DNA of 64,000 nucleotides from Leucoraja ocellata (lineage: Eukaryota), in NCBI GenBank assembly GCA_036785375.1, contig JAWMAR010001507.1, forward strand, positions 186,001 through 250,000. Reading direction: 5' to 3'. Made by a program: the position numbers and the translations under genes. Each line of letters starts with the position of its first letter. Position 1 is the first letter of the stretch. The notes beneath the pieces were generated by a model, which was not told the origin of the DNA, did not search any database, and was given only the letters and a program-made list of their open reading frames with translations. Shown piece after piece: positions 1-64,000 of the stretch.

Positions 1-424
1 TGAGTTTCTCCAGCTTTTCTGTGTAACCATTGGTTACTTCTAAATCAACTGTTAAAATTTCACATCATATGTGCTTCTAACATCCTCAACACTGGACAAA
101 TGTGGATAGATAACAAATAAAAGTGAATATATTCAAATCATTTTCTGGATAAGCAGAAAGCATGGGGAAGATTAACACAGTGATTCCTTTATTAACACCA
201 TAAACAAAGGCAAACTACAGGAGAATGATCATATATTACTTTTTCTTTCTCATATTTAGACATGTAGATCTCTAGTTCTTAAATAATCATGGTAAAAAGA
301 GCAAAACATCAACATCCACTTAGTGATTTTGTTCCAGGATAGCCAAAGCAGGAAGGTGTAATGCAAATACTCAAAGCTTATGCGCCATCCCAGCATGTTC
401 AGGACCTGAATCCTTTGGGATTTA

Positions 425-642
425 GACACAAAAAGGCTGGAGTAACTCAGCAGGACAGGCAGCATTTCTGGAGAGAAGGAATGGGTGTTGTTTTGGGTCA
501 AGACTCTTCTTCAGACAGGTCTTGCCCCGAAACGTCACCCATTCGTTCTCTCCAGCGGAGCTGCCTGTCCCGCTGAGTTACTCCGGCCTTTTGTATCTAT
601 CTTCGGTTTAAACCGGCATCTGCAGTTCCTTCCTACACATAC
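425..642. mobile_element. Penelope-like (PLE) pLTR-derived foldback element
   Basis: Inverted arms (gacacaaaaaggctggagtaactcagc ... gctgagttactccggccttttgtatct); exact 14-bp flanking duplication TCCTTTGGGATTTA at 411-424 and 643-656. Confidence 0.75.
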
Positions 643-6690: not shown

Positions 6691-7971
6691 ATGGATGTCA
6701 ATCAGTCATATGATGTACTGTAAAAACAGATAAAAGTGCTGGAGTAACTCAGTGAGTCAGACAACAAACCTGAAAACACGGATAGGTAATTTTCGGGGAC
6801 AGTTTCTTCCCAGCAATTATCAGGCAACTGAACCATCCTACCAACAACTAGAGAGCAGTCCTGAACTACTATCTACCTCATTGGGGATCCTTAGACTATC
6901 TTTGATCGAATCTTACTGGCGTTATCTTGCACAAGACTTTATTCCCTTTATCGTGTATCTGTAAAATGTGGATGGCTCGTTGTAATCATGTGTTGTCTTT
7001 CCGCTGACTGGTTAGCACGTGACAAAAGCTTTTCACTGTACCTCGGTACACGTGACAATAAACTAAACTCAGGTGACTTTTTGGGTCGAGACCCTTTTTC
7101 AGACTGACTGGTGTTATGTAAAGTTGAACATTTAGATAAGTAATTGGCTTGCAGGATCTATTGGTATTTTTTTCATTCCCACAATTCTTCCAAAGTTATT
7201 TTGGAAAAAGCTCAGACAGTCTATTTGAAATAACAGAACCGTGTCTAGATTAGTTTCCAACAAACTATCCCAAATCCCAAAGATAAACTTTAAAATGGGG
7301 CTAGCAAACAATTTGCTGAGCATCCAGCACATTCAAAAAGATGCACCAATATACACAGAATAAAGGGTTAATGGCAGGAACTAATGCAATCCCTAACATT
7401 TGCTAAATAGGAGCAACTGATTAAAATGGAACATTTGGATGAAACAGTTTGATGCCAGTAATGATTGCTGTGCTGTCCTTGTAACTAAACAAGATGTCTA
7501 CTCTTTGAAAGTATCATTCGGCAGAGCCCACACACAAGAGGAAATAAGATTTATTCAGAATGCTGAACATGGGGCAATTAAAAATATATATTTCCACAAA
7601 AAAATGTGATAATACGAGGTTTGAGAATAAGACTTACTTGTGTGATGGAAAGGGCATGAGTTACAACTGACATTCAGTGAGACATGGAACTGACAAATTA
7701 CCTTTGCAGTAATTCTAACCACTAATTATTGTCATTTATCAAATTTAGAAGTGTTTACTTTGCTGCTTGAGTGATCCACTTCAAGTGACAGATTGACCTG
7801 AATGGCTCAATTCTGATCTGCAAATTCTCTGCAACAGGAAATATCCAAGGTAGCAAACAATCAAATCTTTATTTCTAACGCATCTCGGAAACAAAATGTT
7901 TGAGTACATTGCTCTCCAAAATATATCTTTTATGCAATCAGCCATGCAGAAATATCAACATAGAGGGTTAC

Positions 7972-8115: not shown

Positions 8116-8965
8116 CTTCATTCAAAAGAAGAGAATTTGAACAAATCATTAATAAATATTACACATGAACTAAATTATAAATCTTATATCAGGTTGGAAC
8201 TAAATTGATTGTTTTAAATTTAAATTATATTGAATTCTAATCATTATAAATATTAGCTGTGTTAGTGCTTGATAAGATTTTTATGACAATTGAAACAGCA
8301 CGCATCCTTTTGTTTTAGTTGTGTATAAGCTTATCAAATATATGTCAGTACATCAAATGCAATAACCCAATCTGAAACCACTGAAATATATAAGCTTCAT
8401 GAGTTTTCCTAGTGTCAGGATAACTCAGCAGGTTAGGCAGCATCTCTGGAGAACATGAATAGGTGACATTTTGCGGGTGGGACCCTTCTTCAGACTGACT
8501 TATGAAAGCAAGTCTGCCATGTGCTTTATGATCAGTCTGATGAAGGATCCCTACATGAAAGGCATTTATCCACGTTCTCCAGTGATGCTGCCTGACCTGT
8601 TGATTTACTCTAGCACTTTGTGTCCTTATAAGATTCACTAGTTCTTGAACCAATGGTACCCAACAATTATTTTAGAATTGCTAGGTGAATTTTGTGTAAG
8701 AAGACTCCCTGAGAAAAAAAATTGTGTGAAGTATGAATATCTAGAAATATGAGTTTTTATCTGCTGAATGTACTTGAAATACTTTTTCTTACATTGGCCA
8801 ATGCTAATGCTTACTCCTTAGTTGATGAGTGACCATTGGGAAAGTGGACACAAAATGCTGAAGTAACTCAGAGGGTGAGGCAGCATCTCTGGAGAGAAGG
8901 AATGGGTGACATTTCGGGTTGAGACCCTTCTTCAGACATGCAAAGAAATGTAAAGGTTGAGAAGT

Positions 8966-9960: not shown

Positions 9961-11849
9961 TAAATTGATCTCCTCTGCCTGCGCGTGATCCATATCCCTC
10001 CATTCACTGCCTGTTTTTGTGCCTATTTAAACGCCTCTTAAATGCCACTATTGTATTTGCCTGGCAGCACTTTCCAGGCACTCGCCACTCTCAGTGTAAA
10101 AAGCTTTCCCCACACATCTCCTTTAAATGCTGCCCCTCTCCCCTTAAAGCTCTGCTCTCTGTTCTTTGATATTTCCACCCTTGGAAAAGGTTCTGACCAT
10201 CCACCCTAACTATACATATCATAATTTTATGTACTTCTCTCAGGTCTCCCCTCAATCTCCGATGCTCCAGAGAAAACAGAACTCATAAGCACCAGGCTAG
10301 GTTTGGCTGGCGATAAGAAGGCCATGTCATCGGACCCGTCATACACAGCTGGAGTATCAAATCCCAATGTGAATACAACACTGGTAATATGATCCAGTCA
10401 CTTCCTCCACATACACACATTTAGCACATCAACTGAGTGCAAACCCCCAATATCGATTATTTTAAAGACATCTACAAGCATCCAAATGCAAAGTTGGAAT
10501 AGCCAAATAAACATTTGGAATTTTAACTTATAACATAATAACTGGTGTTTAATGAGCTTTAATATTAGTAAAATAAAAAGGGACAATGCATTTTTGAGCC
10601 AGTGCAATTCAAATAACTCACAGATGGAAAGTTGTGACATGTATCAAGGTAATGGCCAGAGAATGCCTATAAGCAACTTAACTTGATGCTGAAGATAGAC
10701 ACAAAATGCTGGAGTAACTCAGAGACAGGCATCATCTCTAGAGAGAAGGAATGGGTGATGTTTTGGGTTGAGATCCTTCTTGTCCTGCTGAGTTACTCCA
10801 GCATTTTGTATCTGTCTTTAAGTTGCAGAATTGCAGGTTGATTCAGGAATAGCACACAAGGATGCGGATAGGACTAGTAAAATGCAAATTAATGTCATAA
10901 AGTTTGTTAGTATTATCTCATAACCTGGGCTGCTGGGAGGGAGAGTAAAAGTACATATTGGAATTGTTTCAGAGATAATTTCAAATCCTGATGACTAAAT
11001 CCAGAGATAAATGATATAATAAAACAGATCACCTTCCATTCCCAATCTCAACGTATTATTTGAAACAATAGAATATTAGAACCATCTGTCTGGCCTTATA
11101 AAACAGTTTGATTTTGTAACTACATGTTCATTTTTGTACATATAAAGTGTGAGCTGTCAGTGTGAAGAAGTGGCTTGCTTCAACTTTTGTCAGCATCATC
11201 ATTAAATATTCTCAAATTTGGCAATGTGTAGCCATACACACACTAAGGGCCATTGTTATTCTCCTTCTATAATGGTTCCCAATCCTACCCTAAGCACAAT
11301 ATGGGCAAGAAGGGGAGTGTAAATTTTACTCGCTCTCATCCAAGCATATCTGTGGAGTCAGTGATTGAATCAATAAATATTATATTATATTACAAGTGTT
11401 GGATTCCCAGCAGCGTTATATTTCCAGTGTTGTCAAGCAGCTTTAAGTTACATCCACTGAAATTTAAAAATCAGCAGCCTCCTATCTTTAATCAAGGCAT
11501 GTCACATCTCATACAGATTTTGCTTGATCATAGGAAAGGTTCCTGGGATTAAATGAATATGCATTGCCTTGCAAATCATATTCAAGAGCGATTTTTGATG
11601 GAAATTAGATTTATTGCATTACAATTCCTGTAGCCATGTAATTTAACAGATTTTGTTAATGATCAATTTTATTCTGGAAATACAAATTACAGGCCATGTC
11701 CATATATTTGCCATCACTGGTTCCATTTTTAATTTCATACTTTCCTTCAGTCAAAGGTAATCTTTGTTATAACAGAACTGTACTTCAGAAATTGTGCAAT
11801 TGCAGATCAATAAAACATCAAAAAGATAATCTACTAATTTGGTGACTAT

Positions 11850-11975
11850 TTGCATCTGAAGAAGGGTCTCGGCCCGAAATGTCACCTCGCTCCATACATG
11901 CTGCCTCACCCGCTGGGTTTCTCCAGCATTTTTGTCTACCTTCGATTTTTCCAGCAGGTGCAGTTCTTTCTTAAA
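11850..11975 (+). mobile_element. PLE pLTR fragment with hammerhead-like core
   Basis: CTGAAGA-A-GGGT(CTCG)GCCC-GAAA-TGTC at 11856-11883, followed by the family 3' arm. Confidence 0.7.
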
Positions 11976-12094
11976 CATTTACAAACCTTGGGTGTGCAAG
12001 CAAAGAACGTCACTGTGACTTGTCACATGTGACAATAAAGTATTCAATTCAATTCAATTCAATTCAATACTACAACCAAGGACATAACACCTAC

Positions 12095-12181: not shown

Positions 12182-15100
12182 CTATGGAAAGAAGAAGAAA
12201 AATAACTGTCACGTTGTTCACAGATACATCAGGGTTAAGATTAAGAGCCTGCTCACTTAGGCTATTGCTGAATCTGTTTCCAACTCCCATCATTCCAACC
12301 ACAAATTGCATTAAGAAAAGGTAGTTCCTCGTGTCGTCTCATTTTTTTTTAAGCTGTGCCCTCTGACAATGCCATCAGAAACATGTTTTACAAACTATAT
12401 CTAAAGCGTTAATGTTTCTAAACATTGCCATGAATAAGATTATAAGATTGTGATATAAAGGAGCAGAATTAGGCCATTTGGCCCTTCGAGTCTACTCCAC
12501 TATTGATCATTGCTGAACTATTTTTCCCTCTCCAGCCCAATCTCCTGCCTTCTCCCCCTAACTTTTGAGGCCCTTTGACGAGGTCAAACCTCTCCTCAGC
12601 CTTCTCTGCTAAAAGGAGAAAACAGCATTTTCTCCAAGAATCTGTAATCTTTTATTCCTCGAACATTCTGTATCTATTCCAAAGCCTCTGTGTCCTTTCT
12701 TAAGTGCCTACAATTGGGCAGAATGGGTCAGATTTCCTTGGCTTGTCCCCAGTTTCATGCTCGCCCCTGGGTGATCTGTTGAGTATCATTATTTTTCCAC
12801 CGCCCTACGGGAAATATTATACAGGAGGCCACAGCCTGTCCATGACTTGGAGAGGGCTGTGAATGGGAGCCAGTCCTCTGGGGCTGGAACCCAGGACTCC
12901 AGTTTGCCTCCAGCACTGTCCTGAAACCCTTTGATACTTCTTAAATGTTTCTCTGATATTTACAGGCTTTAAAGTCAGCAACCTGTTCACTGCTTTTTGA
13001 AGGGCCTGATGCATTCAATGAATAAATGTATGATTGAATGAATTCATCCCCTCAACCCAGTATACCTGGAACCACACTGGGACTGTGTCAGAATCTAACT
13101 TCCAGCACATATTTGGTTTCAGAGCAGCAGCATGCATACGTGGAGGTTGAAAATGTGTTGAACATTGGAGGCAGATAGGCAACGGGTTCCCTGTAGATCT
13201 TGCATTGGTCCAATGTTCAAGCTAGGGTAGGATCAGAGCTTTGCACTGGTATAAAATACAACTTCCTGGCATTTGACTTACGCCTCTAATCATAAAACCC
13301 AGCATTTGTCTTACTTAATCAGCCTGCCCTACTATCTCCAAAATTATGTGCACAAGCATCCCTGGTCTCTCCATATAACAGAGGACCCATCATTCAGTCT
13401 GAAGAAGGGTGTCAACCCAAAAGGTTGGCTGTCCATTCCCTCCACAGATACTGCCTGGCCTGCTGAGTTAATCTCGCACTTTGTGTTATGTTCCAGGTTC
13501 TAGCATCTGTAGTCTCTTGTGTCTCCTGAACTCTTTCTTTGTGAATTGCTTTAAAATGGTACAACGTCATTTTTATTTTTGGTCATAAAGCCACCCACCA
13601 CAGAAACAGCCATTCAGCCCATTATATACATGCCAGTCATCAGGTACTTAACCATACTAGTCCCATTTCTCAACAGTCAATTGGCCTGTTTCTGTGCTGT
13701 ATTTCAATAGGACTATCTCTGGATCCACCTCTCAGCAAAGGCAGACATTGTTGGTGGATTTACCATAATCATCACAATGCTGGCATTGGCTACTTGATAA
13801 AAAAATGTTTCAAAGTCAAACCTCACACCTGGCACAAAATCATGGACTACCAGGCAACAGTGATCTGTGTCTCTTGGCTTCTAACACGTGGATTGTCTAT
13901 TGCAAGCACCTCAGGGCACTGGAAAGATACTTCCAATGCTGCTTTTGCAAAATCCTCGCAATCAACTGGAAGAATATACGAACTAATGTTAGTTCATAAC
14001 TTATAATAGCAGAAATAGGCCATTCAGCCCATCAAGTCTACTCCACCATTCAATCATGGCTGATCTATCTTTCCTTCTTAACCCCATACTCCTGCCTTCT
14101 CCCCATAACACCCGAAACCCTTAGGGTCCTCTCTCACACCAAAACCTCTCGCATCAAACAGCTAATTACACTCAGTTGGCTCCATGTATGACATCAGATT
14201 CCCAAAATGGATGCCAAGCTCTGTCACAGGAAGAGATTATCAGGTGGAGGGAGAAAAAGATTCAAGAATATTCCCAACAATCCCTCGACTCTTGGGAATC
14301 CCTGGGCCAGTGCAGTTCAAAATGGAGAAGGAATATTCAGGATGACATTAAACTTTGTCCATGTGTCAGGAGCAAAGGAAGCTGAACATAAATGATGCAA
14401 GGAGTGTACCGCCTCACAATACCCATCAGCCTGTCCCATTGCGCACTTCCTGTTCCATCTGTGGAATAGTCTGCAATCCCCACACTTCTTTCATCAGTCA
14501 CCTCAGAGCCCGTAGGACAGAGTGGAAGCAATCCTCAAGGGGTTTTATTGTAAGAAGACTACATTTTCAAGTTATGTCTGACGATAGGGTGCAGATCCAA
14601 AATATTGACTGTCCATTCATTGCACTGATGCTGCTTAACCCACTGAGTTCCTCCAGTACTTTGTGTTTTATTTTCAAGTTATGTGTAGCCTGTAAGTTTA
14701 AAAACATGCCATTTAGCTCTCAAATCTAAGTACTTGATCAAATGTAAACCAAATCTCAGGAGCTTGACTGAACACTCCCTAAAAAACAGAACTTGTACAA
14801 TGATATTTTCTATTACTCAGCCTCTTTTATATCTATGTTCCCGCTTCCCTTTTTATTCCACAGACTCCAATTTTGCTGACATGGTAATAATGCAATACTG
14901 TAACATAGAGACACTGAATATTCATGAACTGACATTAAACTGAGTCGTCTGGAATTAGCAGGTTTATCTTATTTGTACAAGCATACAATATTGATAGCCC
15001 TCCGATCCTTTGGCACCACTTCTACCAAGATGGGTAATTGAAAGATTATGGCCAGAATTTCCACAATCTCCTGTTTTATAAGCCTCAGCAAATGAGGTCA

Positions 15101-15665: not shown

Positions 15666-17849
15666 GTGCTAAAAAGTGCTAAAAGAAACAATTTTCAAAT
15701 GTGCCTTACTTCAATAATAATCTAATCTGGTTGTAATTTTGTTTTGAAAAGTTCCTTACAAAATCAAGTCTCATTTTGACCTCTTCTTTCATTTCACCTT
15801 CACAGATAAAAGTTAACCTATGATTGGAGCAATTGTTTTCATCAGTTGTACTCAATCCATATTGAAAAAGAGGAATGATTTAAAGTATTTAAATTTGTAA
15901 TTTCTAATGAAGTCTAATTTCCCTGGGACTCTGTATGGAGAGCTTCAGCAATCTAGCAATCAGAGAAACCAGAGAGAATGAGGGAAGTTTAGCTCTAATA
16001 CACAAGGATAAAATGGTTGAATGAACTTGCAGTCTCCAGAACATTTTTTGATTAATTTCCCATCCAGGTTGCAGAGGCCTGTGGAATAAGGCCACTGCTG
16101 ACCATGATTGATAGGGTGGAATCGAGACTGCAAATGTTTCTGTGAAAAATCTGAGTGAAAACGTTTAACCCTCCTGACTCACAAAGAGTGCTGAAAAAGG
16201 AATTATCTTGTGGAGCTGTCAGCTCCAGCCAGGCTTTTCATTGTCGGGTTTCTTGCCTTTTGTGATGAGAACTCACTGATCCTACATGAGTTTTACATAA
16301 TGTTGCCAAGATATCGGGTGCTATGAAAACCACAGCAAGCACTTGTACAATAGGTTAGGATCTCACTTCATGCACTTTGCAATTTGATCTCCAAACCTCC
16401 CCAGCTCCAAATGGTAAAAATCAAGACTCAACATACTAAACCTAACAGTCAGTCTGAATAAAGGTCCCAAACCGAAACGTCACCTATTTATGTTCTCCAA
16501 TGATGCTGCCTGACCTGCTGAGGTACTCCAGCACTTTGAGTCTTTATAAAGCATATTTTTCAATGGCCTCTTATGATTTGTCGTTGTTCCATTTTGGGAC
16601 TTGTGACAGTAAAACACTCTTGACTCTCTCAAACCAGATAATTTAACTACAGATGAATAAAACCACTCCTCACACCCACACAGAATTATATACCATTTTA
16701 TAGCTAACATGGGAACAAACAAGAGATGAAGTAAAATGGGTGCATTTACACCTTGGGAATGAAAAATAAACATGAAAATATAACAATACCACAATAATTT
16801 ATACCATCTAGTTGATTTCTAAATGACTGCAGAAAGTGAGCAGTTACAGCTGGACTCAATGAAGAACTAAGAAGATGAAGCTGCTTTTGGTACTGTCATT
16901 GTCCCGTGGATATAGTTCATTCTGTTCATGTTCTTATATTTGCTTGGCTGGAGCTGAGCAGTCGTTTTCTTTTGTATGACTTGCAGAGTTTATTTTTGTG
17001 CACTAGCTGTCTCATCAACAGGATATAGAAAGAAGTGAGTGTAGGGAGTGGTTGACTTGAGAAAAGTTTGGTCATGCCACCTCACTCACCACAAGCTTCC
17101 GCGGCGTTTCAAACATGCCCAGTTCATAGTCAATGTGGAGGCTTCTCAATCCAAGTGAAAAGAAATACTCCTTATCGAATTAAAATCCATTAATCAAAAT
17201 CCCCATTTATCAGATCAACCCATAACAATTGAAAGGATTATCCATATATAGCCAGACACTAATTAACAATTCAACATTAATCCGTAACGCTTTCAAGGCA
17301 GATATTTTAGAATCTGAGAAAATGTGTTTTCTGCCAGCAGTTTTCAAAATCACTGCCCTCAGGAATTGCACACTATTCCAAAGAACAGCCACAATAAGGG
17401 CTCTATTTATAGCATAGCTTGAAAAATAAAAGGAAATTACATGTTCTAGGGAAAAGTCTGGGCCTAACGTTAAAAAAAAATGCACCCGTATAAACATAGT
17501 GGGCAAGCAATTAATAAGCAAAAAAATAATGTTGAAAAATAAAGACATGCATGTGCATAATATCTCTGATACCTCAGGTCATTGAACCAAATTCGGTATT
17601 CTGGATATGTCGTCACTAATGCTATGTAGAAAATGCAGCAACCACTGCACCAGCCCAGCAAACTCTTGTGAATAACAATGTGATAATGATCAATTACTCT
17701 GCTTGCTTATGATGTTAAATGAAGGACAAATGTGCAATAGAACTCTGAATTCCTACTTGCTTCTTTGAAAATGTGCGGGGAAGTAGAAGATAGAATAGTG
17801 CAGCACACGAACTGGCCCCGCGGCCCACAATGTCTGTGCTGAGCATGAT

Positions 17850-19335: not shown

Positions 19336-19833
19336 CGGCAGAGTAGCGCAGTGGTAGAGCTGCCGTCTCACAGCGCCAGAGTTTTGGGCTTAATCCTAAC
19401 TACGGATGATGCCTGCGCACAGTTTGTGCATTCTCCTTGTGACCGCATGGGTTTTCTCTAGGTGCTCCAGTTTCCTTCCATATTCCAAAGACGTGCAGGT
19501 TTGTAAGTTGTATAAGAAGGAACTGCAGATGTTGGTTAAAACGAAGATAGACACAAAATGCTGGATTAACCCAGCGAGACTGGCAGCATCTCTGGAGAGA
19601 AGAAATGAATGATGTTTCGGGTCGAGACCATTCTCCAGTCTGAAGAAGGGTCTCGACCCCAGATGGTCACCCATTCCTTATCTCCAGAGATGCTGCTGGT
19701 CCCGCTGGGTTAATCCAGCATTTTGTGTCTATTTTCAGGTTTGTGGGTTAATTGTCTTCTGTAAATTGCCCCTAGTGTGTAGGATGGGAAAGCGTGGATA
19801 GATGGTCGCCGAAGATCCAGGCTGTATCTCTAA
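19336..19833 (+). mobile_element. HE1/V-SINE interrupted by a PLE-derived foldback (19510-19735)
   Basis: tRNA-like head (gcgcagtggtagagctgcc), V-domain (gggttttctc..ggtgctccagtttcc), body resumes after 19736. Confidence 0.8.
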
Positions 19834-37199: not shown

Positions 37200-37866
37200 T
37201 CTTTAACAACTACCCCCCCCCCCCCCCCCCCCCCATCCGCTGTGCCCCGTCTGGACTTGCCCCTCTCCGCCCCCACCCTCCCCTTCCACCCACATTCCTT
37301 CCCAATTAGAAACTCTTCAATCTTTTTGTGTCACACCTTCTGTCATTTCATCCCTGGCCTTTGTCCACCATCTGCCTATCAAAACCCCCCCTCGCATGTA
37401 TCAACCTATGTGACATGCCAGACTTTGTCCTGCAGATGGACACAAAATGCTGGAGTAACTCAGCGGGACAGGCAGCTTCTCTGGGTAGAAGAAATGGGTG
37501 ACGTTACAGGCCAAGACCCTTCTTCAAAAGGTCTTCAGAAGAAGCGTCTGAAGAAGGGTCTCGACCCAAAACGTCACCCATATCTTCTCTCCAGAGATGC
37601 TGCCTGTCCCTCTGAGTTACTCCAGCATTTTCTGTCTATCTTAGGTGTAAACCATCATCTGCAGTTTCTTCCTACAGGCCTTGTCGTGCCCCATTCGCTC
37701 TTCCAGCCTTCTCCCCCACCCCCACCCCGCTTACAATCAATCTGACGGGTTCCAACCGAAAACATTATCTGTCCACGTTATCCACAGATCCTGCCTGACA
37801 GGCTGAGTTACCCCCGCGCTGTGTCCTTTTTTTTAATAACCGGCAACTGCAGTTCCATGTATGTAC
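37200..37866 (+). mobile_element. PLE pLTR with nested foldback copy (37434-37674)
   Basis: Pyrimidine-rich pLTR body ending in a decayed core (ctga..gggttccaaccgaaa); nested palindrome contains ctgaagaagggtctcgacccaaaacgtc at 37548-37575. Confidence 0.7.
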
Positions 37867-42532: not shown

Positions 42533-42765
42533 TGTAGGATGGAACCGAAGATAGGCACAAAATGCTGGTGTAACTCAACGGGACAGGCAGCATCTCCGGA
42601 GAGAAGGAATGGGTGATGTTTCGGGTTAAAGCCCTTCTTCAGACTGAGAGCCACAGAAGATGGAGTCTAGAGATTTGGAAGGGAGTCTCGACCCAAAACA
42701 TCACTTCTGTCCAGAGATGCTGCCTGTCCCGCTGAGTTACTCCAACATTTTGTGTCCATCTGGCT
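42533..42765. mobile_element. PLE-derived foldback element
   Basis: Inverted arms of the same family; minus-strand hammerhead-like core at about 42615-42642. Confidence 0.7.
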
Positions 42766-45702
42766 TAAGGGAAAGAATATAAATTTCCTTGGAGAGATGC
42801 ATAATGGAGCAGATTGAGACTTCATCTCTTGAATCAATTCTCTAGAACGTTCCATGTAGCACACACACTGACACCAAAACTTACCATATATCCCTGAGCA
42901 CTCGGACTAGTTCTGGAGAAGTTGGCTTTGATTTTGGAGCATAGATGGAGAGCAAGAAATGGAAAGCAGAAACTTTATGAGAGAATTTGGAAGACAGAAA
43001 ATATAACAGTTGCACAGTTAAGTTACTGGGTTAAATCTTGAGGTAGAGACCATTGATCCAAAACATGACTGAATCTTGCTACAGCAACTGCAATTTTTAA
43101 ATTAAATATGAACTATTGAATCACTCTATCTTTAAAAAAAAGTCTAATTAATGGGAAGAATATAAAAACAAATCTAGTTTACCAGTGTTCTTCCAGGAAG
43201 GACGTTGACCATCCTTATCCACTCCAGCTAATATTACTACAGATTTATTAATGTGGTTGACCCTTAAAGTACCTTCTCAGGTCATGCAATATTAGGTATG
43301 GACCGCAAGAAATGATAGAATAAGAATTTCTTGTTAGAGCAGATTTAAATTCTTTAATTTCAGTGCTCACACGATTTTATACTATATTTTTAAATTCTGG
43401 GGATAATATTGAAAAGATCTAGAACAAAGTCAAGTGAAACATTTTGAAACAAGTGAAACTGTCACTTTGGCCCACCAGAGGAACACATTATCTTCCTTTC
43501 TGACTTATGTCAGGACCCATTTTAGTTATCATGAAGCTAAACTTACTATAGCCCAAAAAATACCAGTCATAAAAAAAGAACATACTCAACTCAAAATGTT
43601 GACTGTCCAAGTCCCTCCACATATGCTGTTTGACCCACTGAGTTCTTCCTGTTGCTCTTTTTTGCTTTGGTATAAATTCCAGCATCTAGTTTCTTGTGCC
43701 TCCAACTTATCATTGTATCTCCTTTGGTCACATTTTAATAAACCTGCTGTAATCTTGGTTTATTTCTGGTTTAATGACTATCTCATTTAATCAGATCTAA
43801 TTTATTTGACTTACTGTGACATGTAAATCTATTGAGTTCAGACAGGTTTTAGATTTTGTTTTGGCTATGTATGACTTTGAATATTTAATCAACTGAAATT
43901 ACCTTTAAATGCCATTTTTGCGATGAATATTTCTAAAACAGGGTTCTGAAGTAACACAAAATTAGAAGAATGTAACACATGATTCCATTGCTGGAGTTCA
44001 CTTCCTCTTTCAAGCAGAAACTTGCTTCAGAACTCAAAGCACGGTAGTTTCTGTAAAATTTCCTTTGTGGTTTCAGTGCCATGGCTTAATATAGTTGTGT
44101 TGATTGTCTTGCATATTCTTAAACAAATTTCAAGAATGTATGATATTCCCATCACCACACTGTACAGTTAAAACAAATTTTCATTTAAAGTTAAAACAAT
44201 GTTTAATTCAACGTCTTTTAAAATCGTTGTAAATGTGTCATTGTGCAAAATACTGATGATCTGGTGGCTTAAAGCACTTCAAGGCATTTTGTAGTTTTGA
44301 TGGGCTAGTTCAGGCTTGCTCAGCTCACGAAACAATGGCACGTCAGAACATTAAACAGCTGTTAACTCATTTCAAAAATCTTTTTTCATGGGTCTTAAAG
44401 ATCTATTTTTAACTTATGTAACAACATATCAGCACATTGCTAATAACATTAATTTCATTTTTCTTTAACACTAACTCTGCTTCCAAAATATCTATTTCTC
44501 ATAAATCATCCTGTAGTGAGAATAATTGATAATCTTCAAAATCTGAATCTTGGGCAAATAATAAGCTTGTATCCTCTATGTCATAAGATTCATAGTGCTT
44601 ACATGGTTTTATAATTAAATATCAATGCACAGATATTATATCACAATGGAGGTTGGCCACATTTCTATTCTATTAAAAGTTTAATTGGAATTCTCAGACA
44701 ATATTACCAAGACAGATAGAGGATCAACCAGCACCTTTCTGTTATTGATGGTTATTAGTAATAATCCATGAAGTGTATACACATGCATTGACAATTATCT
44801 TAGACTAAAACACAACTCCCAAAAGAAAATACCAAACTTGTGAGTTTTCTAAATATCAACATGTGGATTTAAACCCACATTTTCTTTCATACCAGATCAA
44901 AACAATTGAATAAAACCTACAACCGTTAAAAAAATATGCAAATATGCTGTAGACATCCACAATCTTGATTAAAACAAGATGATGATAGGTGTGTTATGTT
45001 TCCATGTTTGCAATGTCACATATGGTCTCAAAAAAGGGAAAATGTATTTTAAATGTAAATCAGGACAGTAAATAGAAACTGATTTGTTGTGCACTCAATG
45101 TTTAGAAAATTTGCAGCACCATAATCATTCTAGTGCACAAAATTATAAAAACAAATTATGCACATTAAAGGACACAAAATTTCAAAGAACATAAATTATT
45201 AGTGGGATAAGTGGCACATCGATAGAAACCTGACATGTGGCCACACATTTTCCAAGGATAGTGAGGTCTAAACTCATACTCCCCCTTGTTACCTCGTGCT
45301 GCTGCTATACACAAAACATTTAATTGCAGAAATAATCAAGTTTCTCTCAATAATTCTTTGTCCACCCCCAGGGTGTGCTATTTTAGTCTTTTCCAGCACT
45401 TTGAAGCATAATCAGCATTCAAATATTAAATGTTGTTGCATGAAGTGTATGCAAGTCTTTAATGCTGTGCTGAGCCTTAATTGCTGTTTAATGAAGCCAC
45501 TGGTCTGTAAAAAGATATGTATATGTGAATTATAAAACCATCAGAAGAATATTTCAAAATACAATATATTTTAATATAGTTTATAGGTTTTGGAGATTTG
45601 TGGATATTTCAGTGTTTTAGTTTCATGTGCATGAATTCGTTTTATATTCATCTTAAAAAAAATTTAAGGATTTGTTAACAATTTGTCCATTTTACTTTGT
45701 GG

Positions 45703-46029: not shown

Positions 46030-46656
46030 TACCATTTTGCTGTCTATGGGAATTTCCCTGTGTGATTGGCATCTCGGTCAACTTGATAACATTTCTGTTG
46101 CCAGATGTCTGAAAATTCTTTGAGCAGCTGCCTGACAGGAATTGATGTTGTATATCAGTAGGCTTTTATTGCCAGCATTTTCCAGACAAGGGTGAACAGA
46201 TACTTTATTTTAACAATGTCATGATCAATCTTTCTTGGTGACCCAAACTTGGTGCATTCACTCCCTCAGTGGATAGAACAATAACATGGATTTCTGAATG
46301 ATAAAACAAACCGGCAATAAAGATTTTTTGGCTGTTGCACTTTCATTTTTAAGGTGAAAAATGATATCCTAAGAGATTTGGATTGTAAGCATGATCAGAG
46401 AGAAAGCACAGAATCCATCTAGTCCTGAGAAACATTTGAGACAGGCACCAAATATATTAACTAGTGTTATCTTATACATATGGGACCATGCCCTATGTAA
46501 ATAAGCAGGTCTACTTGTCTATGATTGCGATGGCTACACTGCAAAAACAAATCCACTGGCCATGGAGAAATCCTGGAGCGTCTGGTAATATAATCAGTGC
46601 AAAATAAAGATGCCAATTATTTTCTTTCGCTGACCAGCAGCCAATATGAAGGAACC

Positions 46657-46759
46657 TTGCATCAGTCTGAAGAAGGGTTTCGGCCCGAAACGTCGCCCAT
46701 TTCCTTCGCTCCATAGATGCTGCTGCACCCGCTGAGTTTCTCCAGCAATTTTGTGTACC
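46657..46759 (+). mobile_element. PLE pLTR fragment with intact minimal hammerhead core
   Basis: CTGAAGA-A-GGGT(TTCG)GCCC-GAAA-CGTC at 46667-46694; 12-bp flanking duplication with 1 mismatch at 46645-46656 and 46760-46771. Confidence 0.75.
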
Positions 46760-49700
46760 TATGAAGAAACCATATCCTGGATATGAAGCAGTGGAAAATC
46801 TGTTGGGAATCCATCAAGGTAGAGAACTGTAAGGTGGGATGGCTAACATTACTGATACAATTGAATTTTCTTTTGTATTTAGGATTGATTTTTTGTTTAT
46901 TATTGCACTCTAGGTGAGCATTCCATTATAGATAAACAGTCCACAGCTTTATTCTGCCTCAAAAATAATGTTAGAATCTGGATTAGGTGCATTGGTTAAT
47001 GTTTAATGAAAATAATCTAAAGTAGAAAGTCATTTTACTTAATTGACTCTGAACATTTAAGCTTTGTTCACACGTTTCCATTCACTGCAGCTATAGTGCT
47101 AACATATGGATATATGGAAGGGCTATACCTATATCACAACATAGGTGTAGAAAACAAAATTACAAAACACGATGAGTCAAAAACTGAAGAAATTGCATTT
47201 CGGAGGGAATTTCAATTTTGTTCTCGGGCAGTGCTTTTTATTCCTTCTGCCATGGAATGTAGAGAATTGAGGAAAAATTAGATTGATTAAAATATGCAGG
47301 AAGTGATATATCTGTACTTTATAACTAATCTAAATGTGTTGGTTTCAGTGATCTAAGACTGCACCGGCATCTTTTACTCTAGTTTCATTGAGTATGTTGG
47401 CTTCATTGTCCATGTTGCCATGACAACATGAGCTGGTATTGTACCCCTATAATCATATGCATGGATATCCTTTCCATGTCCTTTTCTGCAACACAATAAC
47501 CGGCGAACTACTGTGTTGCAAAAAGCTAACCTAAAACTATTTCTGAAGGAATTCTCATCAAAAACCAGTTTCATTTCACATTTCCTTCTTTATGTGTTCA
47601 AATCAAGAGTCAATAAAAAGTTTTGTTTTGTAATATCTTGGCAATTCTTTCCTCCAACATTGCTGCATTTACGTGCATGTTGTTATGGATCACTTCTATT
47701 ATATTCAGAACCATCTGTACAAAGTAGTTTGCAGATTTGCTCCGAGCAAATAAAATAGGCAGACTTAAAAAGAAAAATGTAAAAATGAAGAAGCATCTTC
47801 AATTCATCAAACTTGGTGTTAATGCATAAATTCTAAAAGAGCAATTTAACCCGGAAATATGGAAACAATAATAAATGAGGAAAACTACTTTACAAAAAGG
47901 CTGGGCAAAATGAGAGGAAGATGCCATTATTGTTTTGTTTTGGACGGCAACGATATTTGAGAGAGGCACAATGAAGGCAATACTACAAATCTAACATTTT
48001 GCATGAAATTTTAATAGGATCACATTTGTATTTTCACTAAACAGATAATCTATTTCATCTCAATTGGCTGTTTGTTGAAGATTACATTGTGCAAATATCC
48101 GAGGAGCTTCCTACATTACAACCCAAAGTCTAATTGGAAACGAAGAGCTATGCTTGTAAAAGGAATTGTACAACTGTAAGTTTTATTAAGTTATTTCTTT
48201 TCCCACCAATGTGGCCTGAACTACTGAACATTTCTGGTATTTTATATTTTTTATTTCACTTCTCCTCCAGTTCTGTGGGTTTCAAATTGCCTAATACGTC
48301 TGAAGTATCCTGACCCAAAACATTGTTTGTCCATTCCTGCCACAGATGCTACCTGGCCCATGATTCCTCCAGCAGTTTAGTATTTGCTCAAGATTCCAGC
48401 ATCTGTAGTTTCTTGTGTCTCGTGATGGATGTGCCCCAACCTAAAATGGTCTGTCTTTTCCCTCCACAAATGGTCAGGTCCACAGACTCTAGAAGGAGGA
48501 TGGTTTGGGAGATGTTGCACTCTATCCAATTTATTTTAGTCTTTTGTGTCCATAATTGACTCTTGGTAGTCAATGCCATTGTGAATGGTCCTTCATTTTG
48601 AAGTCAAAGGCCAGGAATTCTCATGAGTTGATATGCTTTTCACCAAGGAGCCATTACGAACATTTTAAAACTTTACCTCTGTCACCTGCAAGCTCATGCT
48701 GTGCCAGCAGTAGGAAAATCGCATGCTTATTTTAAACTTCAGACAACTACATACCAAGTTCACGTAATGCCATTTTACAGGTCACACATTGGACTGAAAT
48801 AATGCAATCAACTTGCAGAATAACACTGCGGGTGAAAACCGACATCGGAAAAATAAAATCAACACCAGTTTCCAGCTTTCATCTGAATGTCGTGACGATA
48901 ACTATAATCGTATAAAAATCAAACCAAAATGATTTATTTTCATTTGGTTTTATTTTAAATATTAATCATCGTAATTGAAACTTATTTGAAAGTTATGATT
49001 CATTAATGCAAAACCCAGACGGATCACTGGCATTTTCTCCGATGAGCCCCACCTTAATACATTACCTTAAAGTAAATCCCCAATTCTTCTGATCACCTAG
49101 GTTTATGAGAATACGTTGAATAATATTCCCCAAAATATTGGAAGTTGAATGATAACTTAATCAAGACATTAGAAATTATATTCAGTTGGATAGATGGAAA
49201 ATTCAGAAAATTTATGCTAAATAATTGGTGCCAAACTATTCAATGGTAAAATTGGGAAACATTTATCCTCAAAGAACAGCACAACTATGAAACTCTTCTA
49301 TAACCACCCCAAAGATACAAGGGTGACGGGTCAATGTTTTCATATTCATTAGAGAAAACAGAACAATTTGACAGAAAGCAAATCGATGAAACGTGCTTGA
49401 AAATATACAAAAATAGAGGTTCAATAGCTTGAGTTTGTAAGCCAGAAAGTTCTAACCACAAATCCAAGAAATAAACATTCCTACTGTACACAGATGTTGA
49501 GATATTCATCATCCTACCATTAACTAGCCAGTGCAAATTAGAAATGTCCAAGCAAATGCACCTATGAACAATGAATGAATGAGCCAAGACGAGTCATATT
49601 CCTATATGCAAAAGCTAACTGGAAAAAATAGGTGTGATTATGAAATCAAAAGCAGATAATATCGAAAGCTCTGCACAATTAGCACGGTCTTACAGATATA

Positions 49701-52845: not shown

Positions 52846-52966
52846 TCACTGTGTCTGGTAACCTGCCATTCCAAAGCCAGCCTGATTAGGTATAACAGCA
52901 GTACCCTGTCCTTGGGGTGGCTGAGCACCAAATCCACCTACCCAGGCAGTTGTAGATGGAGGCTGG
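52846..52966 (-). CDS. TIAL1: TIAL1 last coding exon ((D)QPPSTTAWVGGFGAQPPQGQGTAVIPNQAGFGMAGYQTQ*)
   Basis: 121 nt including TGA at 52846-52848; ttgcag| acceptor; AWxGGFGAQPPQGQ and YQTQ* identify TIAR rather than TIA1. Confidence 0.96.
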
Positions 52967-53134
52967 CTGCAAAGAAAGAAAATATATGTGGTTATTTTTG
53001 CAATTTAAAATAAAAACATCCAAAAAAGTGCACGAATTGTATAATTATTAAAACACCTCAAGATGACCGGTTAGGGTGTTGGGTAAACATACCAAACTAA
53101 TTTTCTCACAAAACCCACAAGATAACATATCCAG

Positions 53135-53430
53135 CTCTTGCCGAGTAGAGACCTGTTGGGCTGGTGTCGGAGCCTCTAGGTCGAGTCGGGCCATGGACGG
53201 GTCAGGACAGTGCCTCGAGGAGGTCTTGGGCTGGGACAGAGCCTCAGGAGTAGTAGGGCTGAGGACGCCGTCAGGCCAAAGTGGACGGGTCGTGCCGCAG
53301 AGAACCGCGGGACTCAGATGGGATGAATAACTTTGTCGGCGCCTTTGTGGCGACTCTTGTGTACTTGTGTGCAAAAACTAATAATTTCATGGTGCCTAAT
53401 GAGGTACGTGACAAAGTGACATCATCATCA
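53135..53430 (+). mobile_element. CpG-rich short retroelement 3' fragment in the last TIAL1 intron
   Basis: GC-rich body ending aatttca...tacgtgacaaag plus (cat)n tail, like the 4262-4620 type. Confidence 0.5.
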
Positions 53431-53503
53431 ATTTTATATGCCTAGTTCTCCACAAATGCAAAAATGTTAATTGACCTTAAACTTTGTTCAGTACATTACT
53501 TAC

Positions 53504-53646
53504 TCTACTCCAAATCCTTGTTGATTCCATGTTTGGCCATACATTCCATAAGGGGGCACTTGCCAACCATTGGCTACATACTGGCCATATTGCTGGGCAT
53601 TGCCATACCACTGGCCCCACTGACCCCAGGGCTGAGCAAATTCCAT
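53504..53646 (-). CDS. TIAL1: TIAL1 exon, Q/G/Y-rich low-complexity domain ([47 protein letters not shown])
   Basis: 143 nt, phase 0/2; ttcag| acceptor, |gtaagt donor. Confidence 0.96.
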
Positions 53647-53748
53647 CTGAATAAAAACAATAATTGTACTAGATATTAGAGCTTATGCTCACCATTAAAA
53701 GTCAGAGGTTCTCCTTGGTTGCAAAAGATATCCCACACATCACATTAC

Positions 53749-53872
53749 CTGTTGATACTTGTTGGTAGTATCAGTAGTTTCTTTACCCCAATAGCATTTA
53801 ACTACGTGGCCTTCAATAGTAGTTCCATTGACCGACACAATAGCATGAGCAGCACTATCATGTGTGCCAAAC
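53749..53872 (-). CDS. TIAL1: TIAL1 exon, RRM3 C-terminal half ([41 protein letters not shown])
   Basis: 124 nt, phase 2/0; ttgtag| acceptor, CAG|gtaat donor. Confidence 0.97.
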
Positions 53873-54159
53873 CTACAACAACAAAAATATTAGTTATATA
53901 TGTGCCTGAATAAACATATATATATGCTCGAACCTCTGACAATCTAGGAGCTTACAAAATCTGCAAGATTTAGCTGACAGGAATGTAGAACTCGTGTTGG
54001 AAAATGGCCATTCTGGCTGTTCTACACCAGCCAGACTGCATAAAACCATTAATTCAATGATGTGCAAGATAATGGGAATGTTCAACCCAACCAAACTTGA
54101 TACGTGGCTCCTACCGAGTCACATGGCACATAAACCCCAGGTTTATGTGCCAAGTTACC

Positions 54160-54961
54160 TCTGGAAACTTTTGCTGCTGTTTATCAACATGAGGACCAAA
54201 GTTGTGCCAATGAAAGTCAAAGAAGGCATTATGAGACTGAGAAACAAGCATAAAACTGTTAGGCTTAACAAAATCAACTGTTTGGAACATCATTAAGAAG
54301 AAAGTGAGCTTACTAATCGCAAAGTGACTGGCAGGCCAAGGAAGACGTCCACAGCTGATGGCAGAAGAATTCTTTCTATAATAAAGAAAAATCCCCAAAC
54401 ACCTGTCCAACAGATCAGAAACACTTTTCAGGAGTCAGGTGTGGATTTGGCAATGACCACTGTCCACAGAAGAGTTCATGAACAGAAATACCGAGGCTAC
54501 ACTGCAAGATGCAAACCACTGGTTAGCTGCAAAAGTAGGATGGCCAGGTTACAATTTGCCAAGAAGCACTTAAAAGAGCAACAACAGATCTGGAAAAAGG
54601 TCTTGTGAACAGATGAGATGAAGATTAACTTGTATCAGAGTGATGGCAAGAGCAAAGTATGGAGGAGAGATGGAACTGCCCAAGATCCAAAGCATACCAC
54701 CTCATCTGTGAAACACGGTGGTGGGGGTGTTATGGCCTAGGCATGTATGGCGCTGAAGGTACTGGCTCATTTATCTTCATTGATGGTACAACTGCTGATG
54801 GTAGTAGCATGATGAATTCTGAAGCGCAGAGACACATCCTATTTGCTCAAGTTCAAACAAATTCCTCAAAACTCATTGGCCTGCGGTTCATTCTACAGCA
54901 AGACAATGATCCCAAACATACTGCTAAAGCACCAAGGGAGTTTTTCAAAGCTAAAAAATAG
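54160..54961 (+). mobile_element. Tc1-family transposase pseudogene fragment, antisense within a TIAL1 intron
   Basis: GRPRK AT-hook, second HTH, KVL*TDE, VKHGGGGVM and LQQDNDPKHT motifs; stops at 54606-54608 and about 54738, frameshifts, truncated before the catalytic E; TIRs not recognised. Confidence 0.92.
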
Positions 54962-55284
54962 GTGCAGGAGTAGGCCATTCGATAGCCATGGCCATTACTG
55001 ATCCTTTACTGAAGAGAATGCAGTCTGAAGGAAAAAGTCCTAAAATTATGTGGTCTGAATTGGAAACTTAAAAAAAATAGCAACAATGCAAACTAACATT
55101 TTTCCAAAATGCGTGGTCAATCAAGATATAACTGGAGATAATGTTGTGACTTATTGATAAGGATTGAAAAGGGAAAAAAATATTAACTAGCAGCAATGAA
55201 AAAAATGCAGGTTTTACAACCTGCTTAAACACATTAAACAATGTTTTAACTTAGCTATAATTTAGATAAAACAAACGAAGCCTA

Positions 55285-55404
<120 letters not shown>

Positions 55405-55468
55405 TTAATATCTACATATTTTAGAAGACGGGTCTGGTTGCCAAATATTTATTCAACATGGTCCATAC

Positions 55469-55564
55469 CTGTTAGACCTGATGATATACCTCCACAGTAA
55501 ACCGTACAATTTGAAGGACTGGATTGACCAACTACTTCTTCAAATCTTAGTTGCTTAGAACCAT
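55469..55564 (-). CDS. TIAL1: TIAL1 exon ((N)[31 protein letters not shown])
   Basis: 96 nt, phase 1/1; ttttag| acceptor, CAG|gtatgg donor. Confidence 0.97.
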
Positions 55565-56402
55565 CTAAAAGAAAAGAAAAAAATGTGGCCATATATTAGA
55601 AGCAATAACAAGGAACTAATATGAACCATAATTAATGTGGCTTATTTACAAATTGTTCTGACCACTGATCAGAAATTCAACTACACTAATGCTGCGACTA
55701 CAAGATCAAACCAGAGGCTGGGCATCTTGCATCAAGTTACTCTACATAATACCCAAAGCCCTCCCAGCATTTATAATGAGTGTGCTGTGCAGTTTGACTA
55801 TAAAACACCAGGCAAGAGCAAAGCCAAAACAGTGAAATGGAAAATTCAAATAATACAATAGTCTACAATGTTCCCATCTGTTGCTCAATTAATTGTGGTG
55901 ATTCTTTCCACAATGTGTTCAATGTGCTATCTCTCAGTCACTTAAAAGTGGTGATATTATCTCGACATCAATGAAAAACAGCCCTGCAACTTCCTCTTGC
56001 TTTGCCCCAAATTCTTGCATTCAATTTGTACGTTGATGTCCACAGAGGCCGTTTTCTTCCACCCATGAGAAACCAGCTTACAATACCAAGCACTGTTTTA
56101 ATATTATAAAAAAAACTCAGTCTGTTTGTTTCATGATAACAGACAGCATCATTGCGAATCAGCATTGCATCTTCCTTAAATATGGTGCCACATTTTTTGC
56201 CCACATCGTAAACTTATTTTTCCACTTTCACCATGCGTTACTACAGTTTGACCATGTCCTTAAAAAAACACGCCAGCCTTCTCTGACCATACCATCACTG
56301 TCTTAAATCCACGCTGCTTGCTGCCCGTCTCTCAACATTTCATAATTTCTTCTAAAGATTTGTAAATGTCCTTTACCTTCACACAGGACAATGTGAAAGG
56401 TG

Positions 56403-56755
56403 ATTAGTGAAAGGCCTGGATAGAGTGGATGTGGAGAGTATGTTTCCACTGGTGGGAGAGTCTAGGACCCGAGGTCATAGCCTCAGAATTAAAGGATGTT
56501 CCTTTAGGAAGGAGATGGAGGAATTTCTTTAGTCAGAGGGTGGTGAATCTATGGAATTCATTGTCACAGAAGGCTGTGAAAGCCAAGTCAATGGATATTT
56601 TTTACAGCAGGAATAAGTAGGTTCTTGATTAGTATGGGTGGCAGGGGTTATGGGGAGAAGGCAGGAGAATGCGGTTCAGAGGGAAAGATAGATCATCCAT
56701 GATTAAATGGCAGAGTAGACTTGATGGGCTGAATGGCCTAATTCTGCTCCTATCA
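56403..56755 (+). mobile_element. CR1-type LINE 3' fragment
   Basis: NFFSQRVVNLWNSL and family 3' UTR. Confidence 0.85.
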
Positions 56756-57060
56756 CACGAATTTACATAACTACATAACCGTTTTTTAGAAGATAGGTAT
56801 TCAAATGACCACTATATTCTTTGGGCATTCTAAAAATGATCTGAACTGGATATTTCATAACTGTACACTAAATGTGAGAGTTTTGTGAAAATGGTTGCAA
56901 ATAGTTAACAAATGGTAAAATAAAATAATTAAAATTAGCTGCCTGCAAATTCATTATTTCTATTGTTTTGAGAGTTTATTTTATGGAAAAACACCTCAGT
57001 TTAATATAAAATTCTGCTTAATTTAAAAGCTATTCACATAATATAGATTGAGAAACCTAC

Positions 57061-57169
57061 TCTCTGGTGCACTTTTCGGAGCTGGTGGTTTACGTGTTGC
57101 CCAGTTTGTTCGAATTTGCCGGCCTCCCAGCCACTGTCCTCCCATGTGGACGATCGCATTTTCTGCATC
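57061..57169 (-). CDS. TIAL1: TIAL1 exon, RRM2 C-terminus ([36 protein letters not shown])
   Basis: 109 nt, phase 0/1; ttcacag| acceptor, |gtaggt donor; AIVHMGG is TIAR-type. Confidence 0.97.
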
Positions 57170-57938: not shown

Positions 57939-57944
57939 TTATCT

Positions 57945-63259: not shown

Positions 63260-63421
63260 TTTTAAGAAGGAACTGCAGATACTGGAAAAATCAAGACATA
63301 AAATGCTGGAGAAACTCAGTGGGTGAGGCAGCATCTATGGAGAAAAGGGGTCTGAAGGGGTCCTTTTCTCCATAGATGCTGCCTCACCCGCTGAGTTTCT
63401 CCAGCATTTTTTGTCTACTTT
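63260..63421. mobile_element. PLE-derived foldback element
   Basis: Near-perfect inverted arms; exact 12-bp flanking duplication TAATTCTTAAAT at 63248-63259 and 63422-63433. Confidence 0.75.
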
Positions 63422-64000
63422 TAATTCTTAAATGTACCCTTTTTCTTCATTACCTATTCCCCAATTTCCCGTTCTGATCTCCACTTGCCTGCTTTCACCA
63501 AGTTCCCATGTGCTCCAATACCAATTTACACCGCATAAAAACTGTGGAGCTGAAAGGCACAGAGAAACTAATCTAATTCTGCACTTAAGAAATGACTTGC
63601 AACAGCTAATTCTGGGTCACTTTCATTATCCCAGAATATAATTTAAATTACAGCATTTGCTTTAAAATGCATACAAATGTGAAAGATGACCCAATTAACC
63701 TGTTCACTGCCAAATGTTTATTCCTCACTATTGACCATAACCCAAGTATACTCAGGGATGGTACTGAACAGGTGAAAGGAAAGATTGGAAGTTTAATTTG
63801 GTAGTGCAAGGCAGAATTCATATCAAAATGTTTTGAAAATTTAAATATTGAACCATATCATGAAAACCTCACTTCAGGGCTCTAGACTTTGCAGGACAGC
63901 ATTTTGGCTGCAAAACCGGATTTTATGACGAGTATGGAAACCATCAGCAAGGTATGGAAACCATGACCAGCAGTCAGAACGGATGAACAATCCCGAGAAA

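What the first reader, a model, noticed from the sequence alone, without database searches (positions are those of the whole stretch)
46645..46771. Dispersed minimal hammerhead-ribozyme cores carried by Penelope-derived repeats
Seen: 46667-46694 reads CUGAAGA-A-[GGGU UUCG GCCC]-GAAA-CG-UC. This gives both hammerhead core boxes, a 4-bp helix II with a UUCG loop, a palindromic ACGU helix III and a GUC cleavage triplet. Related cores occur at 11856 (+), 13399 (+), 16454 (+), 19639 (+), 37548 (+), and on the minus strand near 7075-7102, 8464-8492, 8908-8935 and 42615-42642; most defects are CpG decay. Known: PLE pLTRs encode minimal type I hammerheads thought to act as dimers (Cervera and de la Pena 2014), and an extra A after A9 occurs in some natural hammerheads. 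Inference: about ten cores in 64 kb implies a very large ribozyme-bearing non-autonomous family, and minus-strand copies lie in RGS10 pre-mRNA. Caveat: only about 2 bp of helix I are visible, so these copies may be inactive.
Basis: partly seen in the sequence, partly recalled or inferred. Interest (0 to 1): 0.7.

Follow-up and report, generated by a model that had tools for sequence, protein, structure and literature searches.

The report
Penelope retrotransposon tips carrying minimal hammerheads
This is a recent 103-base insertion of the end piece of a Penelope-type jumping gene, one of an estimated 1.4 million such pieces in this genome; it carries the small self-cutting RNA motif already known from these elements, is predicted not to cut on its own, and was likely copied from an uncut RNA that begins right at the motif.

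Summary
The hammerhead core at 46667-46694 is real. It lies in a 103-bp insertion (46657-46759) between 12-bp target-site duplications; a related organism has the empty site. Longer copies run into an RT plus GIY-YIG ORF with a pseudo-LTR and tail, so these are end pieces of Neptune-type Penelope-like elements (PLEs), whose minimal hammerheads are published (PMC4209133). Inserted copies decay neutrally: core no better kept than the downstream block, no covariation. Helix I is 2 bp, below the published descriptor, and helix II is predicted to lose to competing folds. Copies do not start at the cut site: most start within a few bases upstream of the core and end at two fixed points, which fits internally primed copying of uncut RNA up to its 5' end (inferred). 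The scan noted this family often before. New member of a known kind.

The parts
46645..46656 (+). left target-site duplication (12 bp)
   Evidence: matches 46760-46771 at 11 of 12; empty site in run X17 skips 115 bases = insert plus one duplication
46657..46659 (+). 3-base filler between duplication and element
   Evidence: not in the element's upstream sequence; fillers are common at these junctions
46660..46666 (+). 5' edge of the element (CATCAGT); last two bases are the 5' strand of helix I; TCAGT is invariant across five subfamily majority sequences
46667..46674 (+). hammerhead box CUGAAGA plus the extra A between A9 and 10.1
   Evidence: feature listed for min-HHRs in PMC4209133
46675..46686 (+). 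helix II as drawn: GGGU / UUCG / GCCC; predicted pairing probability under 0.005 here
46677..46691 (+). competing hairpin GUUUCG / CGAAAC that would sequester the GAAA box (young subfamily)
   Evidence: read from the sequence; present in the minimum-energy fold of the sister copy L139
46687..46694 (+). GAAA box, ACGU palindrome (helix III in a dimer) and GUC triplet; predicted cut after 46694
   Evidence: descriptor gaaannuh
46695..46759 (+). rest of the pseudo-LTR block, ending at the first of the family's two fixed 3' ends (no tail in this copy); 46695-46696 is the 3' strand of helix I
46760..46771 (+). right target-site duplication
419..632 (.). head-to-head inverted pair of the same family
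7071..7105 (-). short decayed copy, G8 and G12 lost
8418..8636 (.). inverted pair in an RGS10-like intron; minus arm has a disturbed helix II
8838..8937 (-). copy sense to the RGS10-like intron; boxes kept, palindrome AUGU
10685..10836 (.). overlapping inverted fragments
11855..11970 (+). copy with boxes kept, palindrome lost, helix I 1 bp
13396..13519 (+). decayed copy, G12 lost
16451..16551 (+). decayed copy, G8 lost
19515..19740 (.). head-to-head inverted pair
37426..37671 (.). head-to-head inverted pair; plus arm has G12 lost
42542..42790 (.). inverted pair upstream of the first RGS10-like coding exon
63266..63426 (.). inverted pair lacking the hammerhead part

Best explanation
The locus is a recent, target-site-duplicated insertion of the pseudo-LTR tip of a Penelope-like retrotransposon, likely of the Neptune clade, and it carries that element's minimal type I hammerhead motif, which is predicted not to cleave alone and decays neutrally once inserted. 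Shown: element anatomy (pseudo-LTR with core, tail, ORF with RT and GIY-YIG, 3' UTR, second core), TSD, empty site in a relative, copy number, neutral decay, two fixed 3' ends and a 5' pile-up just upstream of the core. Inferred: the element's protein nicks the target and primes reverse transcription inside the RNA at one of two sites about 94 or 130 nt downstream of the core, as shown in vitro for the anole PLE; the template is uncut; copying usually stops at the RNA's 5' end, which likely lies in the TCAGT just before the core, giving a solo tip; priming at both nicks gives the head-to-head pairs; a minority of cDNAs continue into the 3' UTR and ORF. In the source element the hammerhead would act, if at all, as a protein-assisted dimer.
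For: ORF upstream of longer copies: RVT_1 E 1.1e-5 and GIY-YIG E 2e-4 (both below Pfam cut-offs), YIDD, DKG and CX4CXXC linker visible. Tandem pseudo-LTR + tail + ORF start in full-length copies, cores 3,816 nt apart in L118. 23 other copies 100% identical to the focal one over 98-101 nt among 40 scored. TSD and empty site; TSDs of 8-18 bp in 45 of 75 short non-inverted young copies. 3' ends at 91-97 nt in 71 and at 127-131 nt in 23 of 110, matching the two internal start sites that define the tail in PMC11167929. 18 of the first 30 exact-core copies start 0-5 nt upstream of C3; of 207 sampled copies 112 short, 61 inverted, 34 continuing into a UTR; 7 of 30 full-length 5' ends also start at the core edge. 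Only 19 of 384 hits start at model positions 29-35 and 2 at the base after the cut. 70 of 88 adjacent pairs are head-to-head; 1,683 perfect junctions centred on TCAG-W-CTGA. Seven subfamily differences between C3 and helix I all fall at positions the ribozyme tolerates, while upstream UTRs differ widely between subfamilies.
Against: The transcription start was not observed: four RNA runs of related organisms show no pile-up of molecule ends at the core edge or at the cut site (table 6; table 6), though embedded copies dominate those reads. A cap-derived extra G was not significant (7 of 13 filler junctions, p 0.11), and 5' ends are ragged over about 9 nt. No intact ORF was found in the long copies examined (L009, L013, L029/L031, L118-L121). 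Neptune against Nematis was not resolved by a tree. The downstream block is about as well kept between subfamilies as the core (11 of 43 against 5 of 28 variable), so constraint on the core need not be for cleavage. Fold predictions ignore Mg2+, tertiary contacts and protein.
Confidence: 0.72

Rival explanations
1. The 5' pile-up is a reverse-transcription stop or snap-back hot spot inside a longer RNA (self-complementary TCAG-T-CTGA, the C-rich tract, or a protein-bound pyrimidine tract / 3' splice site), not the RNA's 5' end. Identity of the element is unchanged.
For: Ends are ragged, many show TTCAG that could be snap-back copying, 1,683 perfect palindromic junctions; every subfamily has a pyrimidine tract ending in CAG before the core; the D. 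virilis intron ends at helix I.
Against: Ends fall before the C tract, which begins about 8 nt upstream; once past the edge copies usually run on for 100 to over 1,000 nt. A search for the joined form of the one candidate donor and this acceptor gave 7 hits, none with the element's exon upstream; no GT..AG joint among the 15 of 196 joints shown.
Confidence: 0.2
2. The short units are a self-propagating non-autonomous (SINE- or retrozyme-like) family with its own internal promoter, mobilised in trans by the PLE protein.
For: Fixed ends, TSDs, very high copy number; D. virilis Penelope has an internal promoter in the pseudo-LTR, so solo tips could be transcribed.
Against: Short and long copies are identical in the shared block; subfamilies with many short copies also have UTR-bearing members; no tandem arrays of the unit in the window and only 15 of 88 adjacent pairs are same-strand; no shared flank among the short young copies listed.
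Confidence: 0.12
3. Dispersed copies are working ribozymes that cut host transcripts such as RGS10 pre-mRNA.
For: 96,796 intact-core matches in the genome; reads of both orientations cover the core in RNA runs.
Against: Neutral decay and no covariation; 2-bp helix I; helix II probability 0.007 on average in 45 young copies; self-dimer prefers a non-catalytic duplex, -25.0 against -13.3 kcal/mol; published min-HHR monomers did not cleave and the anole PLE ribozyme needed protein; focal copy is intergenic, antisense, absent in a relative.
Confidence: 0.04

Closest known systems
Minimal type I hammerheads (min-HHR) in pseudo-LTRs of metazoan PLEs (Cervera and De la Pena 2014, PMC4209133)
   Same: CUGANGA-H, G10.1-C11.1, GAAA-NN-UH with ACGU palindrome, place in both pseudo-LTRs, mostly dispersed single or opposite-strand copies. 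The Acropora Neptune example has the same 4-bp GGG-led helix II and CGUC.
   Different: Helix I is 2 bp, under their descriptor's 3-bp minimum (like their D. virilis, Culex and Oikopleura rows); 96,796 intact cores against about 9,000 in Xenopus; no cartilaginous fish in their Fig. S3 text; the young subfamily has a competing hairpin over the GAAA box.
Neptune-clade EN+ Penelope-like elements (as described in PMC8557442)
   Same: Single RT + C-terminal GIY-YIG ORF, DKG motif, CX2-5CXXC linker, partial tandems forming pseudo-LTRs, inverted 5' copies, 30-40-bp tail.
   Different: Clear 8-18-bp TSDs in many short copies and no (TA)n target seen; long N-terminal proline-rich repeat region; clade not confirmed by a tree.
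PAc, Poseidon PLE of Anolis (Frangieh et al. 2024, PMC11167929)
   Same: Two fixed 3' ends about 35 nt apart defining the tail; copies hold the uncut ribozyme; no read ends at the cut site.
   Different: In PAc the ORF starts inside the hammerhead; here it starts about 150 nt downstream, after the tail. A 5' pile-up at the core edge is not mentioned in the parts read.
Non-LTR retrozymes (bioRxiv 10.64898/2026.07.22.740005)
   Same: Type I hammerhead, PLE pseudo-LTR origin, non-coding copies.
   Different: Retrozymes are head-to-tail tandems with a ribozyme in each unit; these are solos or head-to-head pairs about 100-135 nt long.

Membership tests
PLE minimal type I hammerhead | CUGANGA plus one extra base, then helix II of 3-7 bp starting G10.1-C11.1 | tested here: met
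   (sequence level; fold is predicted disfavoured)
PLE minimal type I hammerhead | GAAA-NN-UH with palindromic 15.2-16.2 | tested here: met
   GAAACGUC in the focal copy and majority sequences
PLE minimal type I hammerhead | helix I of at least 3 bp (published descriptor) | tested here: not met
   2 bp in the focal copy and in 29 of 43 intact cores; 5 reach 3 bp. The paper accepts 2-bp variants found by hand, so it belongs with those variants, not the descriptor class
PLE minimal type I hammerhead | covariation supporting the helices | tested here: not met
   no two-sided excess at 9 pairs in 207 copies; only one-sided U-A/U.G and G-C/G.U changes between subfamilies
PLE minimal type I hammerhead | located in both pseudo-LTRs of a PLE | tested here: met
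   L118 cores at 6031 and 2215 flank the ORF
PLE minimal type I hammerhead | self-cleavage at the UH site as dimer or with protein | not testable with these tools
   no end pile-up in fragmented RNA libraries is uninformative
EN+ Penelope-like element | RT followed by C-terminal GIY-YIG endonuclease in one ORF | tested here: met
   Pfam hits below cut-off but in order, motifs visible; all copies examined are broken
EN+ Penelope-like element | partial tandem forming a pseudo-LTR, inverted 5' copies, 30-40-bp tail | tested here: met
Neptune clade | CX2-5CXXC linker between RT and EN | tested here: met
   CNRKKCNTC; shared with Nematis
Neptune clade | RT phylogeny with reference Neptune elements | not tested
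   no reference sequences fetched
Non-LTR retrozyme | two or more consecutive head-to-tail units each with a complete hammerhead | tested here: not met
   no such array in the window; 70 of 88 close pairs are head-to-head; whole genome not screened
Rfam hammerhead families | match at gathering score | tested here: not met
   0 hits in the window; none at E up to 10 near the locus

The most novel reading that the evidence does not exclude
The element's transcript starts in the TCAGT immediately before the hammerhead, so the roughly one million solo tips are the PLE counterpart of retroviral strong-stop DNA, integrated before the jump; the hammerhead core then serves as the terminal redundancy (a cut at the 3' copy would leave about 30 nt repeated at both RNA ends) across which the RT jumps to rebuild the pseudo-LTR. 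That would give the PLE hammerhead a defined role and explain its 2-bp helix I.
Probability: 0.3. Interest if true: 0.6.

Novelty: new member of a known kind. Interest (0 to 1): 0.27.

Why it matters
The role of PLE hammerheads and the way PLEs rebuild their end repeats are still open (PMC8557442, PMC11167929). A young, very abundant family with sharp ends, TSDs and empty sites in relatives is a dense natural record of the insertion reaction, and it makes the strong-stop-and-jump idea testable with one 5'-end mapping experiment. About 5% of this genome appears to be made of these tips, which matters for repeat annotation and for ribozyme screens, where they would inflate counts with decaying motifs. 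As a host-regulatory ribozyme the locus has no support.

Tried and rejected
Rfam scans: nothing. ORF-skipping or back-splicing from the donor-like AAG/GTATG at the ORF start to the CAG before the core: 7 genomic hits, all chance flank or TSD matches; the spliced form would not lengthen helix I anyway; RNA joints inconclusive at low depth, 15 of 196 shown. Cap-derived extra G: looked strong in the first 30 copies but fell to 7 of 13, p 0.11, on 110 copies; not claimed. Copies starting at the cut site: no excess. Covariation: none. Preferential core conservation in inserted copies: none. Genome-wide RGS family search did not list this contig; the gene was found by local translation instead. Run search: no RNA holder listed; raw RNA runs of related organisms were laid and showed no end pile-up, and no coverage of the focal flanks. 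Lunse et al. (dimer-cleaving PLE variants) is not held; only its title was seen. Literature searches for a PLE hammerhead in cartilaginous fish and for a strong-stop model (0 papers with 4 of 5 terms) found nothing relevant; subscription papers, Repbase and Dfam were not searchable. Supplement file 1 of PMC4209133 and bioRxiv supplements could not be seen and might list related families. The pseudoknot reading from an earlier scan note was not tested.

Full report
Observation. The core is at 46667-46694 as described. It sits in a 103-bp insertion, 46657-46759, between duplications at 46645-46656 and 46760-46771 that match at 11 of 12 bases. DNA contigs of run X15 carry the insertion; a contig of run X17, a related organism with 10 differences over about 400 flanking bases, joins 46652 to 46768, the empty site. 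The copy is therefore recent and not shared. It is 100% identical over 98-101 nt to 23 other places among the 40 candidates scored of 994.

Family size. A profile built from window copies finds 38 hits in the window and 384 hits, 296 loci, 35,325 bp in 72 arbitrary 10-kb pieces from large contigs, with 0 hits in the reversed control. Scaled to 3.44 Gb this is about 1.8 million arms, 1.4 million loci, 4.9% of the genome; this is an extrapolation from 720 kb. Exact counts: 7,762 copies of the focal 28-mer, 2,541 with the upstream C tract intact, 96,796 matches to the intact-core pattern, all with control 0. That the host is a cartilaginous fish is my recall plus earlier scan notes, not tested.

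What it is. Longer copies continue upstream through a pyrimidine-rich 3' UTR into an ORF with RT and GIY-YIG domains (Pfam E 1.1e-5 and 2e-4, below the curated cut-offs) and a CX4CXXC linker, which PMC8557442 (passages read) assigns to Neptune and Nematis. Full-length copies have the classic partial tandem: core, downstream block, 35-nt tail, ORF start, ORF, UTR, second core 3,816 nt later. None of the long copies examined has an unbroken ORF. Several subfamilies exist, 7-17% diverged from their own majority sequence, with widely different UTRs but the same end block. So the repeats are pseudo-LTR tips of PLEs. Minimal hammerheads in PLE pseudo-LTRs, mostly dispersed as singles or opposite-strand pairs, are described in PMC4209133 (main text parts 1-2 of 4 and supplement file 2 read).

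Is the ribozyme functional? In inserted copies no: non-CpG core positions changed at 253 of 1,987, the downstream block at 1,250 of 11,249, CpG core sites at 208 of 786 (clusters under 10 members left out); no pair shows two-sided changes beyond shuffles in 207 copies, the smallest p for pairing being 0.032 among nine tests. In source elements the motif looks constrained: the seven positions from C3 to helix I that differ between five subfamily majority sequences are three loop bases, one U-A/U.G, C17/U17 and two helix I bases that keep pairing. But the downstream block is nearly as well kept, so the constraint may serve promoter or RT binding. Helix I is 2 bp in 29 of 43 intact cores, short of the 3-bp descriptor though like the D. 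virilis, Culex and Oikopleura rows. In the young subfamily helix II has mean probability 0.007 (45 copies) against 0.47 in 2 older copies, and the self-dimer prefers a non-catalytic duplex. The anole PLE ribozyme cut only with protein and was not needed for insertion (PMC11167929, parts 1-2 of 4 read), so protein-assisted activity is not excluded.

Host context. An RGS10-like gene lies on the minus strand and a TIAL1-like gene ends at about 52849 on the minus strand. The focal copy is between them and antisense to both. Sense-intronic copies at 8464 and 8908 are not fully intact; 42615 is upstream of the first coding exon. There is no sign of a host role.

How the copies arise. 3' ends cluster at 91-97 nt (71 of 110) and 127-131 nt (23 of 110) from C3 (this set was enriched for short copies by design), as expected from the two internal RT start sites of PMC11167929. 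5' ends do not cluster at the cut site (19 of 384 at model positions 29-35) but just upstream of the core: 18 of the first 30 exact-core copies, and 173 of 207 sampled copies are short or inverted there, 34 run on (the last number may be low because it needs a partner in the sample). Close pairs are head-to-head in 70 of 88 cases, 1,683 with a perfect junction on TCAG-W-CTGA. TSDs of 8-18 bp flank 45 of 75 short non-inverted copies, often with filler. My reading: uncut RNA is primed internally and copied to its 5' end in TCAGT, an initiator-like motif (recalled consensus; Penelope's internal promoter in PMC2377424, passages read). Against it: the cap-G signal did not hold up (7 of 13, p 0.11), and RNA runs of related organisms show no end pile-up, which is weak either way because embedded copies dominate. 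A snap-back or stall site is the main rival.

Comparison and verdict. Works like: the PLE pseudo-LTR with a weak, probably protein-assisted dimer hammerhead. Member of: EN+ PLEs (tests met); min-HHR only as a 2-bp-helix variant; not a retrozyme array (definition from 10.64898/2026.07.22.740005, part 1 of 5 and passages read). Earlier scan notes report the same family many times, 69 notes in this genome and 424 overall; I had noted the strong-stop idea before looking, and those notes are not independent evidence. New member of a known kind; the scale and the sharp 5' edge are the points worth keeping.

Noticed in passing
window 7933-39320, minus strand: RGS10-like gene; exon-bearing frames at 7933-8121, 12062-12181, 20373-20549 and a first coding exon near 39317 in a GC-rich stretch with two short tandem repeats; last exon not found in the window.
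   Followed up: partly
window 52849-61794, minus strand: 3' exons of a TIAL1 (TIAR)-like gene; one exon matches nucleolysin TIAR at E 2e-18.
   Followed up: partly
L118:5883 and L081-L110: The ORF start sits in a donor-like AAG/GTATG just after the tail, and every subfamily has a pyrimidine tract ending in CAG before the core; no spliced genomic copy was found.
   Followed up: partly
L055, L057, L072, L078 (5' part of the ORF): The N-terminal region of the PLE ORF holds a variable-number array of short GC-rich repeats that differs in length between copies.
   Followed up: no
family positions about +48 to +55, +76 to +83 and +104 to +111 from C3: AGATGCTG can pair with either of two CAGCAT repeats, one before each fixed 3' end; may be the structure that sets the two RT start sites.
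   Followed up: no
L173, L178 and others: Young copies inserted into older copies of the same family, with TSDs made of family sequence.
   Followed up: no
G000:C1:19.55-19.67 Mb: Several identical young copies repeat at spacings of some kilobases, suggesting a segmental tandem duplication rather than new insertions.
   Followed up: no
window 15316-15678, 17718-18122, 24523-24999, 54297-54958: Fragments that look like LINE 3' ends and a Tc1-type transposase (by eye).
   Followed up: no
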